Part shown: positions 34,407 through 56,929 of the stretch, piece after piece | How the letters are laid out: every line of letters begins with the position of its first letter | Numbering within the stretch: the stretch's first letter is position 1 | Source: a virus | IMG/VR virus record: IMGVR_UViG_3300017750_000004 | Length of the DNA: 64,000 nucleotides | Reading direction: 5' to 3' (one strand) | Translations under genes and position numbers: made by a program | Notes under the pieces: generated by a model | The model's database searches: none | The model's input: the letters and a program-made list of their open reading frames with translations, nothing else | What the model was told of the DNA's origin: nothing

Positions 34407-34808
34407 CTATAGAGAGCAGACACTCCCCTCTTCGGATGAGTCGAATCGATTATCGCCACATCCATATTTTCCATCATTATCAGTATCACACGCCTGTTGC
34501 CATGTAATCATGTCAAAGGTCAAACCTTCGCTCCAAGGAACATAGGCTTTACACCATTCATGAGACCCAGGTTGAAAAGGATCTTGTGGTTCTGGTACGT
34601 AGTCTCTAGATGTCCAAGGCTTTTGTACACGAAAAAACGTGTCCTTGTTTTTCATTAGCTGTCTTTTAAACAGCGCACTGCGAGTATTACTGATATAGAT
34701 TTCTTGCCCTTCCTTAAGCGTGTACGTTGATCCATCATCGTAGTTAATAACGGTTTCTGCTGCTACAGTGGTTGAGATAATAGCTAGCAGAGCTAAAAAA
34801 TATTTCAT
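34407..34808 (-). CDS. Secreted / periplasmic hypothetical protein
   Basis: Signal peptide MKYFLALLAIISTTVAA; four Cys; RBS GGAG. Confidence 0.6.
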   Translation of the reverse strand: MKYFLALLAIISTTVAAETVINYDDGSTYTLKEGQEIYISNTRSALFKRQLMKNKDTFFRVQKPWTSRDYVPEPQDPFQPGSHEWCKAYVPWSEGLTFDMITWQQACDTDNDGKYGCGDNRFDSSEEGSVCSL

Positions 34809-46268: not shown

Positions 46269-46589
46269 ATGACTATGACTGCTAACGCCTCTCAGAACTA
46301 CTCTGAGACTATGATTGCCGAGATCACTACAAAGTACTCTGCTGACCCTGTTCGTGCTACTGTCGATGCGCTGGCTGACAAATTTGGTAAGAGCCCTCGC
46401 TCTATCATCGCCAAATTGTCTGCTCTAGGTATCTACCAGAAAGCAGAGCGTGTAACCAAGCGCGGTGAGCCTGTTGTCAAGAAAGAGTTCTTTGTCAACG
46501 CTGTAAACGAGCGACTGGGCCGTGAATTGCCTTCTGTAGGTAAGATGACCAAGGTTGATCTTGAAGCTTTGCTCGAGATCTTGAGCTAA
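46269..46589 (+). CDS. A2-like DNA-binding protein (paralogue 2)
   Basis: NYS..M...VDALADKFGKSPRSIIAKLSALGIYQK. Confidence 0.7.
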   Translation: MTMTANASQNYSETMIAEITTKYSADPVRATVDALADKFGKSPRSIIAKLSALGIYQKAERVTKRGEPVVKKEFFVNAVNERLGRELPSVGKMTKVDLEALLEILS

Positions 46590-46593
46590 ATCC

Positions 46594-46618
46594 CGGGGCC
46601 TAGTGCCCCGCTTTATTT
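46594..46618 (+). terminator. Intrinsic terminator
   Basis: CGGGGC-CTAGT-GCCCCG-CTTTATTT. Confidence 0.65.
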
Positions 46619-46628
46619 AAGTATTTCT

Positions 46629-46838
46629 ATGTATGTAGTTTATATTCGAATTGGTGCAGTAACTCTTTGGCTAAATACTTGGCTAGAGTATTATGACGCC
46701 TATCGAGAAGCGGAGTCCTTAAATAAAGTGGATTACAAGGCGTACTACTTTGTGCGCTATAAGGAGAATTTTGATGGCAAAAACAATGATTTTCGACCAC
46801 GCGACTACACGAAAGTACCGCATGGTCAAGAAATTTAA
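46629..46838 (+). CDS. Hypothetical protein
   Basis: 69 aa ORF. Confidence 0.45.
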   Translation: MYVVYIRIGAVTLWLNTWLEYYDAYREAESLNKVDYKAYYFVRYKENFDGKNNDFRPRDYTKVPHGQEI

Positions 46839-46989
46839 TGGTAAAAAAGTAATGTCGCATGGCGCATATCGTGCGAAGCGTAAGCCTAACTCCCCTATCG
46901 TTAAGAGGGCGGAGGCCGTAAAAGCTGCTGCAAACTTTGGCAAAAGTCCTGAGTTTAAGTTCGCTATCTACGGTATTGTGGCAGAGTAA
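46771..46989 (+). CDS. Hypothetical basic protein
   Basis: AAGGAG RBS before ATG 46771 (MAKTMIFD...). Confidence 0.6.
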   Translation: MMAKTMIFDHATTRKYRMVKKFNGKKVMSHGAYRAKRKPNSPIVKRAEAVKAAANFGKSPEFKFAIYGIVAE

Positions 46990-47180
46990 TGGCTCACATG
47001 GTACGAGAAATTGTAAGGCCCGGGCTATACGTTTTCAAAGTATTTAATCAAAGGGGAGCTTTGATGTATCATGGCTCTAATGAAGACACTGCGATTGCAA
47101 TGAAGACATCGTTGGAAAACCTGGAGGAAAAGCGTGCTAGAGAAGCAAGAAAGATTGGCAGTAGTAGACCGAGCGACTGA
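46989..47180 (+). CDS. Hypothetical protein
   Basis: TAATG-coupled 63 aa ORF. Confidence 0.55.
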   Translation: MAHMVREIVRPGLYVFKVFNQRGALMYHGSNEDTAIAMKTSLENLEEKRAREARKIGSSRPSD

Positions 47181-47364
47181 TACAATAGAAGTAGAAGGTC
47201 AGCGTAGGTCTTTCACAAGCCTGCAAAGAGTAAAAGATGAGCTGTGGCACAACTGGGCGCTTTCAGAGGCCGAGGTTGACAACGTAATTCGTACAATGTA
47301 TCAAGAGGGGGAAATTCGTGAAACCTTTTCTCTTTCTTCCTTTTATCCTTCTACATGGGAGTAA
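47134..47364 (+). CDS. Hypothetical protein
   Basis: GGAGG RBS, GTG start. Confidence 0.55.
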   Translation: MLEKQERLAVVDRATDTIEVEGQRRSFTSLQRVKDELWHNWALSEAEVDNVIRTMYQEGEIRETFSLSSFYPSTWE

Positions 47365-47371
47365 ATAACTA

Positions 47372-47551
47372 ATGGAAATCAAAGAAGTAGACCAAGTGAC
47401 AATTCAATTTGCTACAAATGGGACTGTGCTTGAGTTTAGTGGGCGTATTGACGGAGACTGGACTACTCGGAAAGAGTTGTTTTTAGTAGGAGATGAAGCT
47501 GATTTGTTTGCACGAATTGCTGACCTACAGGTGGTGCATCGTGCAGCTTAA
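47372..47551 (+). CDS. Hypothetical protein (59 aa)
   Basis: Hand-translated MEIKEVDQVTIQFATNG...; GGGAG upstream. Confidence 0.55.
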   Translation: MEIKEVDQVTIQFATNGTVLEFSGRIDGDWTTRKELFLVGDEADLFARIADLQVVHRAA

Positions 47552-47732
47552 AGGGAACGCAGAAAATATAGCGTGGCGTCTACGTACCTTTTGCGTGTAC
47601 GAAGCTGACGTAGAAAAGTTCGAACCTAAACTACATATGAACAGTGATGGGCTAGTTTTGGAGTACAACGAAAAAGGCACTGGACACAAAATGTTTGAAA
47701 AAATTTGTGGGGTAGAGAAAAAAAGTTCTTGA
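47541..47732 (+). CDS. Hypothetical protein
   Basis: GTG start overlapping the previous gene. Confidence 0.5.
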   Translation: MQLKGNAENIAWRLRTFCVYEADVEKFEPKLHMNSDGLVLEYNEKGTGHKMFEKICGVEKKSS

Positions 47733-47758
47733 CTTTTAGTTCAAAAACGGAGTATAAT
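47729..47758 (+). promoter_or_regulatory. Promoter of candidate ncRNA
   Basis: A-tract, then TTGACT-18-TATAAT. Confidence 0.8.
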
Positions 47759-47764
47759 ATCTTC

Positions 47765-48325
47765 TTAAATGGGGGAAGTCAGGGACGCCATAAGTGTGCT
47801 ACCCACTTGCGATAAGACAGTAAAGATCCCGGTAAAAGTTAACTCGGCCTATCCGGAGCCCCAACCTAATTTGTTCCACCCTTGTTGACCCTGCCGTGTA
47901 CAGGTTGAAAGGCATCGAGGAGTAAGGAACAGAGTGCTAATGTGGGATGGCAAAGCACGTTAAAAAGTACCATCTTAGTTTAGTGCCACTTAGCGCACTT
48001 TTCCCTGTTCGAGGTACTATATCGAACCCCCTTGTACACGGGCGGATGTGTACGACCAGTTACGGCTTTGTTGCATTTTCGCATTCTGGTTTAGCAAAAA
48101 CGAAAAAGTGGTGGGTGGTATCTGCAGTACATACCCAGATACGTGTGGAAGGTTGGTGCGTATCACTATAACTATAGGAGGAAGTCCTTTTTATTATTGG
48201 TCTATTATTGCAAAGAGGCGTCGAAACCCTCGACCATAACGAAAGGCACTATATAGCCTAGTGGCAGTTCGCGGCTCTAAACCTAACTGTAAAATCCCTG
48301 CATAGAAATATGTGGGGATTTTTTT
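47765..48325 (+). ncRNA. Large (about 560 nt) structured non-coding RNA candidate
   Basis: Bounded by a promoter and a terminator; no RBS-led ORF; many stems and two loop-distal complementarities (see findings). Confidence 0.68.
48291..48325 (+). terminator. Intrinsic terminator
   Basis: ATCCCTGCAT-AGAAAT-ATGTGGGGAT followed by a T run. Confidence 0.75.
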
Positions 48326-48345
48326 ATGTGTTCTAAAAATTTTTC

Positions 48346-48374
48346 TTGACATTTTTTCTCAGGGGCTGTATAAT
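48346..48374 (+). promoter_or_regulatory. Early promoter
   Basis: TTGACA-17-TATAAT. Confidence 0.85.
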
Positions 48375-48396
48375 ATGTGTTCTATGGGAGAAATTT

Positions 48397-48723
48397 ATGT
48401 CGAATATAATCGAGTTTCCAGAAGAACGCCGTATTAAGTTAAAATTAAATACGACAAAAAATGAGCTAAAAGAGTTGTATGATAGTATGCAATTGTGCTA
48501 TACTACTATAGAAAAGCTAGAAGAGAAAATAGCTGAAGTAGAGCATTACTACGACCTGGTGTTCACTCAATATGTTAAAGCCCGGGGCATGGATAATGTC
48601 GAAGTGGAATATCTAGAGTGGATAAGTGGTGACGTAGTTATAAATCTAGATACAGGAGAAATAAGCTATGCGGGGCAAGAACAGACAGAAGGAGACGATC
48701 CGAAACCCGGTGGCGCGGCATAA
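48397..48723 (+). CDS. Hypothetical coiled-coil protein
   Basis: GGGAG RBS; MSNIIEFP... Confidence 0.65.
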   Translation: MSNIIEFPEERRIKLKLNTTKNELKELYDSMQLCYTTIEKLEEKIAEVEHYYDLVFTQYVKARGMDNVEVEYLEWISGDVVINLDTGEISYAGQEQTEGDDPKPGGAA

Positions 48724-48782
48724 TCACAATCGTGGCGGGGTCCACAAACCGAAGAAAGGTAAAGGAAGTTATAGGAGGGAAC

Positions 48783-49097
48783 GTGTCGAACTACACGGAG
48801 AGTGAAACTGAGTATATGATTGAAAGCTATACTATGTGTCCGAATATGCGTACAGTAGAGTTGCTTGCAGCAGAGCTCAATAGAAGTAAGAAGTCAATAA
48901 TTGGAAAGCTATCACGCGAAGGCGTGTACCGGAGAGAGGTGTATGTTTCAAAAACTGGAGAAAAACCTATCACAAAAATTGAAATCGTTTCGAATATCGC
49001 TGATGCTCTGGAGATCGAGGTGGGAAGTATATCGGGCCTCGAAAAGAGCCCAAAAGAAACTCTCAGAAAACTCCTTGAAGCGGTAGCGGGGTCGTAA
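48783..49097 (+). CDS. A2-like DNA-binding protein (paralogue 3)
   Basis: GGAGG RBS and GTG; SNYTE...VELLAAELNRSKKSIIGKLSREGVY...LEKSPKETL. Confidence 0.7.
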   Translation: MSNYTESETEYMIESYTMCPNMRTVELLAAELNRSKKSIIGKLSREGVYRREVYVSKTGEKPITKIEIVSNIADALEIEVGSISGLEKSPKETLRKLLEAVAGS

Positions 49098-49099
49098 AA

Positions 49100-49249
49100 A
49101 TGCGAGAGATTCTCAGCATGTTATGGTGGATCTACGTATCAATTATGTGCATTCCGATGCTATGGGGATCAAATTTAGAACAATTTTTCATGGTTTTAAT
49201 GGTATGGTTATTGTTTTTAACATTCCCTTTTATGTTTTATAAGCCATAA
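49100..49249 (+). CDS. 49 aa membrane peptide
   Basis: MREILSMLWWIYVSIMCIPMLWG...; hydrophobic. Confidence 0.5.
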   Translation: MREILSMLWWIYVSIMCIPMLWGSNLEQFFMVLMVWLLFLTFPFMFYKP

Positions 49250-49299
49250 AAAAATTGCGAATTGGCGCAAATTTTGAAGGGTTTTGTGTAAGTAGTAGA

Positions 49300-49580
49300 C
49301 GGATTTTCAGTAATAATCGTAGAATGATTATTAGCGGGGTTGTTTGATTGTGAACGAATTATTTGATTATCTTTATTATGAATATTCGTCACAATCAATA
49401 CTTAATTGAAGCACAAAAGTAATCAGAGATTGGTGATCCCGAAATCAGTTTCATTCAGATTTATGGTTAGGGACATTACGGCTTCGCCTTATGCCCCGCC
49501 CAGAATAAATCTAATTCAAACGATTTCGATCTAGTTAGTAAGAATCTGTGATTGACTTGATTGTTCATCAAAATATGTGT
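49300..49580 (-). other. ORF-free region with long imperfect hairpins (origin or sRNA candidate)
   Basis: Inverted repeats 49346-49363/49381-49396 and 49440-49464/49505-49528; GCGAAGC apex on the minus strand. Confidence 0.55.
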
Positions 49581-50866: not shown

Positions 50867-51019
50867 TTGATCGGACTTTACTTAATACTAGCACTTTGTA
50901 TGTTTGGTTGTGCCGGACACGCATTTTATCTCGGCCGCCGTACAGGGGTTGAGGCTACAGTAAACTATCTAATGGAGAAAGGAATCCTAGAACTAGACGA
51001 AGAGAGTCCATCTCTATAA
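50867..51019 (+). CDS. 50 aa membrane peptide
   Basis: AGGAG RBS and TTG; MIGLYLILALCMFGCAGHAFYLGRRTG... Confidence 0.6.
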   Translation: MIGLYLILALCMFGCAGHAFYLGRRTGVEATVNYLMEKGILELDEESPSL

Positions 51020-51036
51020 CTGGATAACAATAACCC

Positions 51037-56594: not shown

Positions 56595-56897
56595 ATGGAA
56601 CTGTATGAATCTCCAGAAATGTATGAAAAAATTGTACATTATGACGAAGAAAAAGAAGTTCAGATACGATTGACGGTAAGTACGTTTCGTGGAATAGAAT
56701 ATCTACACCTTCGTAAGTATTATTTGAGTTTTGACGAAGAGTGGTGCCCTACTCCAGAAGGAGTAGCCTTTCCACTAGATTTCAATAATAGTAGAGAACT
56801 TTTTGCAGGATTAGTCGAGATACTAAGCCTGGCGGAAAGTAAAGAAATTATTGAAGAGAATTTTTCCGATCTTATCCAGGACTTATACATAAAATAG
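56595..56897 (+). CDS. PC4-like ssDNA-binding / transcription coactivator protein
   Basis: IRLTVSTFRGIEYLHLRKYY...EEW.PT..GV.F. Confidence 0.8.
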   Translation: MELYESPEMYEKIVHYDEEKEVQIRLTVSTFRGIEYLHLRKYYLSFDEEWCPTPEGVAFPLDFNNSRELFAGLVEILSLAESKEIIEENFSDLIQDLYIK

Positions 56898-56900
56898 TTC

Positions 56901-56929
56901 TTGACTTTTCTTTCTTCTTTCTGTATAAT
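56901..56929 (+). promoter_or_regulatory. Promoter
   Basis: TTGACT-17-TATAAT. Confidence 0.85.

What the first reader, a model, noticed from the sequence alone, without database searches (positions are those of the whole stretch)
47729..48325. About 560-nt promoter-to-terminator unit with no credible ORF: large pseudoknotted ncRNA candidate
Seen: a strong promoter (47729-47758) and an intrinsic terminator (48291-48325) bracket a region with no RBS-led ORF. Stems found by eye: TGTTCC 47872-77/GGAACA 47926-31; AGTGCTAATGTGG 47933-45/CCACTTAGCGCACT 47986-99 enclosing GATGG/CCATC; GTTCGA/TCGAAC 48007-27; GTACAC/GTGTAC 48034-53; GATACG/CGTATC 48138-64; CCTTT..TGGTC 48186-48202/GACCA..AAAGG 48232-46; CAGTT/AACTG 48265-89. 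One contiguous strand, GGAGCC-CCAACCT (47855-67), is complementary to two distant hairpin loops: AGGTTGG (48150-56) and GGCTCT (48273-78). This suggests double pseudoknots. Known: phage-associated giant RNAs (ROOL about 580 nt, GOLLD, OLE-size class) are multi-pseudoknot structures, and T5 keeps its stable RNAs in the early region. Inference: this is a large structured RNA of unknown, possibly new, class. I cannot assign it to a family.
Basis: partly seen in the sequence, partly recalled or inferred. Interest (0 to 1): 0.82.

Follow-up and report, generated by a model that had tools for sequence, protein, structure and literature searches.

The report
New large structured phage RNA gene
A marine T5-like phage carries a stand-alone gene for a roughly 560-base, intricately folded, non-coding RNA that matches no catalogued RNA family, is conserved in about 45 related viral sequences and is found in ocean RNA libraries; its job is unknown.

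Summary
A near-consensus promoter (47729-47758) and an intrinsic terminator (48291-48329) bracket about 560 nt with no conserved ORF.

Homologues from about 45 marine viral or metagenomic contigs show a structured RNA:
- Nearly every helix is kept through compensatory changes, including G-U pairs that work only on the + strand.
- None of the window's ORFs survives outside its closest relatives.
- No Rfam 15 family matches. There is no copy in 185,000 prokaryote genomes or in GenBank phages.
- Metatranscriptomes from several studies hold it; in one, a contig inside the unit has word depth 247 against 2-9 on the flanks.

Seven of his eight stems hold. His long stem 47933-45/47986-99 and both long-range pseudoknots do not.

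What is there instead:
- A universal 94-nt three-way-junction domain (D1, 47770-47863).
- Two local H-type pseudoknots.
- Swappable accessory modules.
- A hairpin whose loop is always self-complementary, though its sequence changes. In OLE and GOLLD that pattern marks a symmetric kissing loop.

Best reading: a new class of large "ornate" phage RNA that acts as RNA and probably self-associates. The function is not shown.

The parts
47729..47758 (+). sigma-70-type promoter (TTGACT, 18-nt spacer, TATAAT). The transcript is predicted to start at about 47765-47767.
   Evidence: 11 of 12 matches. Both hexamers are identical in all homologues. The same promoter drives the alternative RNA in L093.
47765..48329 (+). 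Predicted primary transcript of about 560 nt: the ncRNA gene.
   Evidence: Bounded by the promoter and terminator. No ORF is conserved. RNA-library contigs lie at 47870-48293.
47770..47863 (+). Domain D1, the universal three-way junction. Helices: P1 47770-74/47859-63; P2 47778-80/47816-18; P3 47786-88/47809-11 plus 47793-96/47804-07; P4 47829-32/47853-56. The junction strands are invariant (AGUAAAGAU; GAA opposite AGUA, which looks like a loop-E or sarcin-ricin motif).
   Evidence: 91-97% of cells pair, against 23-49% when the partner is slid. P1, P2 and P4 have compensatory pairs, and 0 of 500 shuffles reach the covariation score. One copy per phage record. It occurs alone at the 3' end of a different RNA in L090/L093. 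No Rfam match.
47872..47931 (+). Domain D2: closing helix P5 47872-77/47926-31, an irregular helix between the invariant CGUUGACC and GGCAUCG strands (47886-90/47911-14), and a variable apical hairpin at 47890-93/47901-04.
   Evidence: 5 of 7 P5 pairs have compensatory changes. (the same shape recurs in 30 sequence variants, some with inserted hairpins).
47934..47976 (+). H-type pseudoknot PK1: S1 47934-38/47954-58 and S2 47944-50/47970-76, with an A-rich third loop.
   Evidence: 100% of 252 cells pair. S2 has two compensatory pairs; S1 is invariant. L092 adds GGGAAGG/CCUUCC. The L012 group carries a different pseudoknot of the same topology at this place.
47982..47999 (+). Hairpin H3 (AGUGC/GCACU).
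Evidence: a hairpin is kept in 22 sequence variants.
48007..48027 (+). Hairpin H4 (GUUCGA/UCGAAC).
   Evidence: 22 variants, for example GCCGA/UCGGC, AUCGA/UCGAU and AGCUGG/CUAGCU.
48032..48055 (+). Hairpin H5 (UUGUACACG/UGUGUACGA). Other subgroups have one or two different hairpins here.
   Evidence: 21 variants.
48054..48106 (+). H-type pseudoknot PK2: S1 48054-59/48086-91 (CCAG/CUGG core) and S2 48076-81/48101-06 (UUUUCG/CGAAAA).
   Evidence: 88% of cells pair, against 32-61% when slid. Pair 24-54 is G-C in 7 sequences and U-A in 7. Pair 3-38 has five pair types. L080 has UUGUUU/AAACAA.
48113..48136 (+). Hairpin H7, with the self-complementary apical loop CUGCAG (48122-48127).
   Evidence: 22 variants with fully compensatory stems. 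Loop palindromes switch among CUGCAG, CGCG, CCAUGG and GUUGCAAC. Members found afterwards have CUCAUGAG, UCUGCAGA and CCAUGG.
48138..48164 (+). Hairpin H8 (GAUACG/CGUAUC) with a conserved purine-rich 15-nt loop (GGAAGGUUGG, or GGAGGUAGG in other members).
   Evidence: 20 variants; L070 has GGUAGG/CCUACC. An H8-like hairpin also precedes D1 in L093.
48183..48250 (+). Accessory long hairpin P9: 48183-90/48242-50, 48198-202/48232-36, 48215-18/48228-31, and the conserved loop CGUCGAAAC. It is absent or replaced in some homologues.
   Evidence: 82-92% of cells pair; the L012 group has a different compensating stem.
48265..48289 (+). Accessory hairpin P10 (CAGUU/AACUG). This module is absent from 16-18 of the 38 homologues.
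   Evidence: 100% paired where present; a single compensatory change..
48291..48329 (+). Intrinsic terminator (14-pair stem, then a U-run).
   Evidence: L022 and L023 have a different, compensating stem.

Best explanation
Shown:
- Window 47765-48329 (+) is a stand-alone gene for a roughly 560-nt structured non-coding RNA. It lies in the early region of a roughly 100-kb marine T5-like phage and has its own consensus promoter and terminator.
- It belongs to a family not catalogued in Rfam.
- Its anatomy is an invariant 94-nt three-way-junction domain (D1), followed in this subgroup by a second domain (D2), two local H-type pseudoknots, several hairpins and exchangeable 3' modules.
- D1 is the only part common to all versions of the locus.

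Inferred:
- The RNA acts as a folded RNA particle, not as a message and not as a cis-acting leader.
- The most likely mechanism (my estimate about 0.35-0.4) has two parts. The molecule self-associates into a dimer or higher oligomer through the self-complementary loop of hairpin H7. It then uses D1, with its invariant junction, to bind a host or phage partner, or possibly for catalysis. This would make it a scaffold or decoy of the same kind as the phage-borne ornate RNAs ROOL and GOLLD.

The confidence figure refers to the shown part.
For: Conservation:
- 38 distinct full-length homologues (27 clusters at 95% identity, down to 59% identity), plus six divergent ones.
- The unit is 83-92% identical in nucleotides where the adjacent gene is 74-79%. 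In one relative it is 95% identical while the neighbouring protein is 61% identical.

Covariation:
- D1 pairs in 91-97% of cells against 23-49% when the partner is slid. It has 7 pairs with compensatory changes, and 0 of 500 shuffles reach its score.
- PK1 pairs in 100% of cells.
- PK2 pairs in 88% of cells, with G-C and U-A split 7 to 7 at one pair.
- In P5, 5 of 7 pairs have compensatory changes.
- Hairpins H3, H4, H5, H7 and H8 are each kept in 20-22 sequence variants.
- G-U pairs are common, so the folded strand is the + strand RNA.

Not coding: the window's ORFs are intact in only 2-5 of 38 homologues.

Not a known family: there is no Rfam hit for the window, for nine homologue loci or for D1 alone.

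Expression:
- 6 RNA runs from 4 studies hold the unit, and 13 RNA runs hold its 5' part.
- In one metatranscriptome a contig at 47987-48293 has depth 247 against 2.4-8.8 on the flanks. In two other runs only the unit is covered.

Self-association:
- The H7 loop is a palindrome in every subgroup, but the palindrome differs among them.
- This held in homologues found afterwards.
- The same signature was used to support symmetric kissing loops in OLE and GOLLD (PMC12286853, read).

Copy number: one copy per phage record, including a 101-kb record rated complete.
Against: - No experiment bears on function, and oligomerisation is inferred from one loop.
- The palindromes are short (4-8 nt). I noticed the pattern after the fact, among about ten loops.
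- The single-sequence folding energy is ordinary (z = -1.1).
- The transcript ends are predicted, not mapped.
- In one RNA run the 5' domain sits on a low-depth contig that also crosses the promoter. The abundant species may therefore be only part of the unit, or a relative's variant.
- Contig depths are poor measures of expression, and DNA can contaminate RNA libraries.
- S1 of PK1, P3a and most of P4 never vary, so they carry no covariation evidence.
Confidence: 0.85

Rival explanations
1. The transcript is a precursor that is cut into several small stable RNAs. Each module (D1, the pseudoknots, the 3' hairpins) would act on its own, as in the stable-RNA clusters of T4 and T5.
For: Modules are swapped, inserted or lost independently among homologues. 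D1 occurs in a different RNA context in L093. In one RNA run, the 5' part has depth 5 and the 3' part has depth 247. Relatives carry a permuted tmRNA, which also needs processing, 3-4 kb downstream.
Against: ARAGORN predicts no tRNA or tmRNA within the unit. Modules abut without spacers. RNA-library contigs span several modules (47891-48244 and 47870-48275). The depth contrast can also come from strain variants that share only part of the sequence.
Confidence: 0.12
2. D1 is a ligand- or protein-sensing aptamer. The unit would then be a cis-regulatory leader that controls read-through of its terminator into the downstream early genes.
For: D1 has the look of an aptamer: a three-way junction with invariant junction strands. 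In L093 it lies directly before the terminator. One oligo-dT library contig runs across the terminator (48117-48557).
Against: The downstream gene has its own perfect-consensus promoter 20 nt after the terminator (48346-48374), and the same is true in L093. In the window, 430 nt of other conserved structure separates D1 from the terminator. P1 varies while the terminator stays unchanged, so no alternative pairing covaries. The read-through contig has low depth and may be DNA.
Confidence: 0.06
3. The conservation acts at the DNA level (for example a replication origin, an injection-stop site or a protein-binding site), or the unit encodes small proteins.
For: Palindromes such as CTGCAG and GTTAAC are present. 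The window has ORFs of 74 and 63 aa.
Against: Helices are kept through G-U pairs, which make sense only in + strand RNA. ORFs are broken by frameshifts and lost start codons in 33-36 of 38 homologues. The ORFs match no protein family. The unit is found in RNA libraries.
Confidence: 0.03

Closest known systems
ROOL RNA (Rfam RF03087)
   Same: Phage-encoded, about 580 nt, with many helices and several pseudoknots. No known protein partner, and a stand-alone gene. Kissing loops build its homo-oligomer (PMC12286853).
   Different: No sequence or structure match to the Rfam model, even at E up to 10. ROOL usually sits near tRNA islands, but this window has no tRNA. The host range and habitat differ (marine T5-like phages). 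Oligomerisation is only inferred here.
GOLLD RNA (Rfam RF01998)
   Same: A large phage RNA with one universally conserved part and one variable part. Palindrome switching in a loop was used as evidence for a symmetric intermolecular kissing loop. Some members come from marine metagenomes.
   Different: No Rfam match. GOLLD is more than 800 nt long and its conserved part is the 3' half. Here the conserved part is a 94-nt domain, at the 5' end in most members and at the 3' end in L093.
OLE RNA
   Same: Large, ornate, and dimerises through a palindromic kissing loop.
   Different: OLE is bacterial (extremophilic Firmicutes), works with the OapA/B/C proteins and is not phage-borne. No Rfam match here.
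tmRNA
   Same: A chain of H-type pseudoknots in a stable RNA of several hundred nt. Relatives of this phage do encode a permuted tmRNA nearby.
   Different: No tRNA-like acceptor end, no tag reading frame, no ARAGORN or Rfam hit, and no sequence similarity to the relatives' tmRNA.
phi29 pRNA
   Same: A phage-encoded RNA with its own early promoter that works as an oligomer held together by loop-loop pairing (my own knowledge, not tested here).
   Different: pRNA is about 120-174 nt, is restricted to phi29-like podoviruses, and pairs two different loops rather than a palindrome. No similarity was found.

Membership tests
ROOL (RF03087) | Match to the family's covariance model (sequence plus consensus structure). 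| tested here: not met
   cmscan found no hit at the gathering score on the window. It also found none at E up to 10 on the unit or at E up to 1 on nine homologue loci.
ROOL / GOLLD (as a kind) | A phage-borne, stand-alone RNA of more than 500 nt with many covarying helices and pseudoknots. | tested here: met
ROOL / GOLLD (as a kind) | Forms an RNA-only homo-oligomer. | not testable with these tools
   There is only an indirect sign: the H7 loop is always a palindrome, and the palindrome switches between subgroups.
ROOL / GOLLD (as a kind) | Lies next to tRNA genes. | tested here: not met
   The 64-kb window has no tRNA. Relatives have a permuted tmRNA 2.8-4.4 kb downstream.
GOLLD (RF01998) | Match to the family's covariance model. 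| tested here: not met
tmRNA | A tRNA-like domain with a CCA end, plus a tag-peptide reading frame. | tested here: not met
   ARAGORN finds none in the window, yet it finds tmRNA in relatives at another place. Rfam finds none.
RNase P RNA | Long-range helix P4 formed between conserved regions CR-I and CR-V, and a match to the Rfam models. | tested here: not met
   There is no Rfam hit. The two GGAAGUC-like motifs resemble CR-I only superficially. The position that would have to pair varies freely (A, G, U or C at column 38 of A1).
Riboswitch or cis-acting leader | An aptamer whose state controls expression of the gene that follows on the same transcript. | tested here: not met
   The downstream gene has its own consensus promoter after the terminator (also in L093). 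No known aptamer matches.
Group I / II intron | Inserted in a host gene, with a match to the intron models. | tested here: not met
   The unit lies between genes and has its own promoter. There is no Rfam hit.

The most novel reading that the evidence does not exclude
This is a fourth class of ornate RNA that works as an RNA-only homo-oligomer, alongside OLE, ROOL and GOLLD. It would be specific to marine and possibly freshwater T5-like phages. The particle would assemble through the palindromic H7 loop. D1 would be a new, autonomous functional motif (a binding site or ribozyme core) that phages recombine with different scaffolds.
Probability: 0.3. Interest if true: 0.9.

Novelty: new variant of a known kind. 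Interest (0 to 1): 0.78.

Why it matters
Very few natural classes of non-coding RNA longer than 500 nt with elaborate conserved structure are known. Three of them (OLE, ROOL, GOLLD) were recently shown to build RNA-only assemblies of unknown purpose, and two of those three (ROOL and GOLLD) are phage-borne.

A further, unrelated class would matter for these reasons:
- It comes from abundant marine phages and is seen in ocean metatranscriptomes.
- Its alignment is already rich in covariation.
- Its possible dimerisation loop is directly testable.
- Its 94-nt core is small enough for structural work.

Together these would give an independent case for asking what phages use such RNAs for. The modular make-up, with one invariant domain joined to exchangeable scaffolds at a fixed locus, is unusual for ncRNA genes. 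It suggests which part carries the function.

Tried and rejected
Ideas tested and dropped:
- RNase P RNA. By eye, GGAAGUC and ACAGUAAAGAUCCCGG resemble CR-I and CR-V. But the required P4 pairing fails, the two motifs lie only 40 nt apart, and there is no Rfam hit.
- tmRNA or a piece of a two-piece tmRNA. There is no ARAGORN or Rfam hit, and no similarity to the relatives' tmRNA.
- A CsrB-like GGA sponge, or a Shine-Dalgarno mimic in the H8 loop and at AUAGGAGGAAG. The motifs are not enriched and are not kept across subgroups.
- Pairing of the H8 loop with the D1 tail, with the C-rich linkers or with the P4 loop. I found no consistent compensation by eye, and one search shows none.
- A riboswitch-like alternative pairing between P1 and the terminator. 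P1 varies while the terminator does not.
- Palindromes in other loops. GUUAAC in the P4 loop and GUAC in H4 are not kept across subgroups.
- A weak second D1-like hit at 56837-56918 (-), 16.5 bits. I take it as chance.

Searches that led nowhere:
- GenBank phages by blastn, megablast and tblastn.
- Prokaryote genomes by two patterns.
- Earlier notes of this scan.
- Supplements of the IMG/VR structured-RNA survey, which are not held.
- Structure-aware MAFFT modes, which are not installed.

The scan for all covarying 4-bp stacks was too noisy to use for long-range pairs.

Full report
**What is in the window.** The scan finds a promoter at 47729-47758 (TTGACT, 18-nt spacer, TATAAT; 11 of 12 consensus positions). 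It also finds a 14-pair terminator hairpin at 48291-48322 followed by a T-run. A second, perfect-consensus promoter (48346-48374) starts 20 nt after the terminator and serves the next gene. The unit is therefore a separate transcription unit of about 560 nt. The longest ORFs inside it are 74, 63, 39 and 37 aa. None matches Pfam or PHROGs. Rfam 15 finds nothing in the whole 64-kb window at gathering scores. At E up to 10 it finds only terminator-driven noise in the unit. ARAGORN finds no tRNA or tmRNA. The folding energy of the single sequence is not unusual on either strand (z about -1.1). On its own, the sequence does not prove structure.

**The phage.** The window encodes terminase, portal, a head protease/capsid fusion, major tail protein, DnaB-like helicase, NAD-dependent ligase, DNA polymerase, primase, PPK2, IscU and lysozyme. 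This is a large tailed phage. The unit lies in a region of small genes with many consensus promoters. A related viral record of 101 kb is rated complete. Neither GenBank phage DNA nor a tblastn with a 1033-aa protein gives a match.

**Homologues.**
- The small gene just upstream (47493-47732) retrieved nine IMG/VR loci. All of them carry the unit.
- An invariant 20-mer found 13 viral contigs and 47 metagenome stretches. Three of those stretches are chance hits.
- Together these give 38 distinct full-length promoter-to-terminator units. They form 27 clusters at 95% identity and fall to 59% pairwise identity.
- Two looser patterns added divergent members: L080/L085, L088, L092 and L090/L093.
- All come from marine or estuarine samples.
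- Two pattern scans of 185,579 prokaryote species genomes found nothing.
- A covariance model of the 5' domain finds exactly one copy in each of four long viral records and one in the window.

**It is conserved as RNA, not as protein or DNA.**
- The neighbourhood is mosaic: the downstream gene is often replaced, yet the unit is always there.
- In several relatives the unit is 83-92% identical in nucleotides while the adjacent gene is 74-79% identical.
- In one relative the unit is 95% identical while the neighbouring protein is 61% identical.
- The four ORFs of the window are intact in only 2-5 of 38 homologues. In 21-25 of them the length difference is not a multiple of three.
- Helices contain many G-U pairs. 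In PK1, G-U alternates with G-C and A-U. G-U pairs would be A-C mismatches on the other strand, so the folded molecule is the + strand RNA.

**Structure supported by covariation.**
- *Domain D1 (47770-47863)* is a three-way junction made of P1, P2-P3 and P4.
  - On an unbiased MAFFT alignment of 29 sequences, 96.9% of cells pair, against 23-49% when the 3' partner is slid by one to three columns.
  - Seven of 19 pairs have changes on both sides, almost none have a change on one side only, and 0 of 500 shuffles reach the covariation score.
  - With the divergent members added (33 sequences), P4 also gains a compensatory pair, with G-C in 31 sequences and A-U in 2.
- *Domain D2* closes with P5. 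Five of its seven pairs have compensatory changes. The same fold recurs in 30 sequence variants, some with inserted hairpins.
- *PK1 (47934-47976)* is a local H-type pseudoknot.
  - All 252 cells pair, and S2 has two compensatory pairs.
  - A third version of S2 (GGGAAGG/CCUUCC) occurs in L092.
  - S1 never varies.
  - The L012 subgroup replaces this module by a different pseudoknot of the same topology, whose second stem also covaries.
- *PK2 (48054-48106)* is a second H-type pseudoknot.
  - 88% of cells pair, against 32-61% when slid.
  - One pair is G-C in 7 sequences and U-A in 7, and another has five pair types.
  - MAFFT misaligns some subgroups there, so the figure is a lower bound.
- *Hairpins H3, H4, H5, H7 and H8* each fold the same way in 20-22 different sequence variants. 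H8 is also supported.
- *The 3' modules P9 and P10* are helical where present. They are absent, replaced or expanded in many homologues.

Seven of his eight stems are right. The long stem 47933-45/47986-99 is not, as it pairs in only 54-81% of cells. Those bases belong to PK1 and to hairpin H3. His two long-range pseudoknots fail:
- CCAACCU/AGGUUGG pairs in 71% of cells, its two central positions are mostly mismatched, and two of its bases belong to P1.
- GGAGCC/GGCUCU is compatible but shows no covariation. Its 3' partner is missing from 16 of 38 homologues, and its 5' strand is already in P1 and P4.

**Modularity.** D1 is the only universal part. In L090/L093 the same promoter and the same flanking genes enclose a different 335-nt RNA. 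There, D1 sits at the 3' end, just before the terminator, preceded by an H8-like hairpin with a purine-rich loop. That RNA has no Rfam match either. D1 alone, searched with the most permissive filters, matches nothing in Rfam. Its junction strands are invariant. The GAA opposite AGUA between P1 and P2 resembles a loop-E or sarcin-ricin motif. That resemblance is my reading of the sequence and is not tested.

**Expression.**
- Six RNA-seq runs from four studies hold part of the unit. Thirteen RNA runs hold its 5' third, including weak traces in freshwater libraries.
- Contigs from four RNA runs, each from a different study, were laid on 46500-49500:
  - In one metatranscriptome, a contig at 47987-48293 has mean word depth 247, while contigs on the flanking genes have 2.4-8.8.
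  - In two other runs, only 47870-48275 is covered.
  - An oligo-dT library covers the flanks evenly at low depth and has one contig that crosses the terminator.
- Caveats:
  - These are assembled contigs, so they do not give transcript ends.
  - Depths sum over relatives, and RNA libraries can contain DNA.
  - In the first run, the 5' domain lies on a depth-5 contig that also crosses the promoter. The abundant species may be a part of the unit, or a variant that shares only its 3' half.

**A hint at mechanism.** The apical loop of H7 contains a self-complementary word in every subgroup, but the word differs: CUGCAG, CGCG, CCAUGG and GUUGCAAC.
- Each has a chance probability of about 0.03-0.23, so the joint probability is about 2e-5 before correcting for having looked at about ten loops.
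- I formed this idea first. The divergent members found afterwards fit it, with CUCAUGAG in L080, UCUGCAGA in L088 and CCAUGG in L092.
- Adjacent bases of a short loop cannot pair with each other. Palindrome switching of this kind was the argument used for symmetric intermolecular kissing loops in OLE and GOLLD (PMC12286853).
- This points to dimerisation or higher assembly. It is an inference from one loop.

**Comparison with known systems.** The closest kinds are ROOL and GOLLD. Both are large, pseudoknotted, phage-borne RNAs of unknown function that form RNA-only cages through kissing loops and A-minor contacts, and both are often found near tRNA genes. This RNA works like that kind as far as can be seen, but it is not a member of either family, because the Rfam models do not match. 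It is not tmRNA, RNase P RNA, an intron or a known riboswitch (see the membership rows). Three literature searches found no description of it. A 2023 survey predicted about 10,000 structured RNAs from IMG/VR and may include pieces of it under an anonymous number. Its supplements are not held, so I could not check.

**Verdict.** This is a real, expressed, strongly structured ncRNA gene of a new family, and the finding is interesting. The mechanism is open. I put about 0.35-0.4 on a self-associating scaffold or decoy that acts through D1, about 0.12 on a precursor of several small RNAs, and about 0.06 on a cis-acting leader. The remainder goes to other ways of acting as RNA. DNA-level or coding explanations get about 0.03.

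Noticed in passing
L036:3677-3995; L012:13327-13780; L015:5227-5680; L018:5586-6039; L088:4472-4927 and others; window junction at about 51003-51036: Many relatives of this phage carry a circularly permuted (two-piece type) tmRNA gene with tag ANDD(I/V)Y(A/T/E/Q)LAA. It lies on the same strand, 2.8-4.4 kb downstream of the RNA unit (Rfam tmRNA_permuted 120 bits; ARAGORN). The window lacks it. By alignment with L018, the cassette would sit at about 51003-51036. The gene that accompanies it there is homologous to window 34412-34760, which lies elsewhere and in the opposite orientation. The tag and the permuted type may point to the host clade.
   Followed up: partly
L093:6368-6703 (- strand), identical in L090: At the same locus, with the same promoter and the same flanking genes, another phage subgroup has a different 335-nt RNA. 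It carries about 200 nt of unrelated sequence with no Rfam match, then an H8-like hairpin, then D1, then the terminator. Only two nearly identical copies were found, so the structure of its 5' part is untested.
   Followed up: partly
window 47493-47732 (probable true start GTG at about 47541): The small gene directly upstream of the RNA promoter stays adjacent in most homologues recovered with their upstream flank (blast-detectable in 22 of 25 loci), including the L093 type. Only its C-terminal roughly 30 residues are conserved (HMNxDGLVxEYN..TGxKxFEKI). It has no family match. Whether it is a partner of the RNA or merely syntenic is unknown.
   Followed up: no
window 56837-56918 (-): A weak match to the D1 covariance model (16.5 bits, rough E of 0.007, GC 0.27). 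Probably chance.
   Followed up: no
L016:11321-11496, L031, L039, L044, L070, L092: Some homologues carry an extra 3' module of about 130 nt before the terminator (GGGUUUAUCUACUCAGACCC ... GGGAGUCAUGCCCC). It has its own predicted hairpins and no Rfam match. Parts of it recur in L080 and L092 in another arrangement.
   Followed up: no
runs X33-X36: Four freshwater metatranscriptomes hold a small share of the sampled words of the 5' third of the unit (47765-47935, which includes D1). The family may therefore extend to freshwater phages.
   Followed up: no
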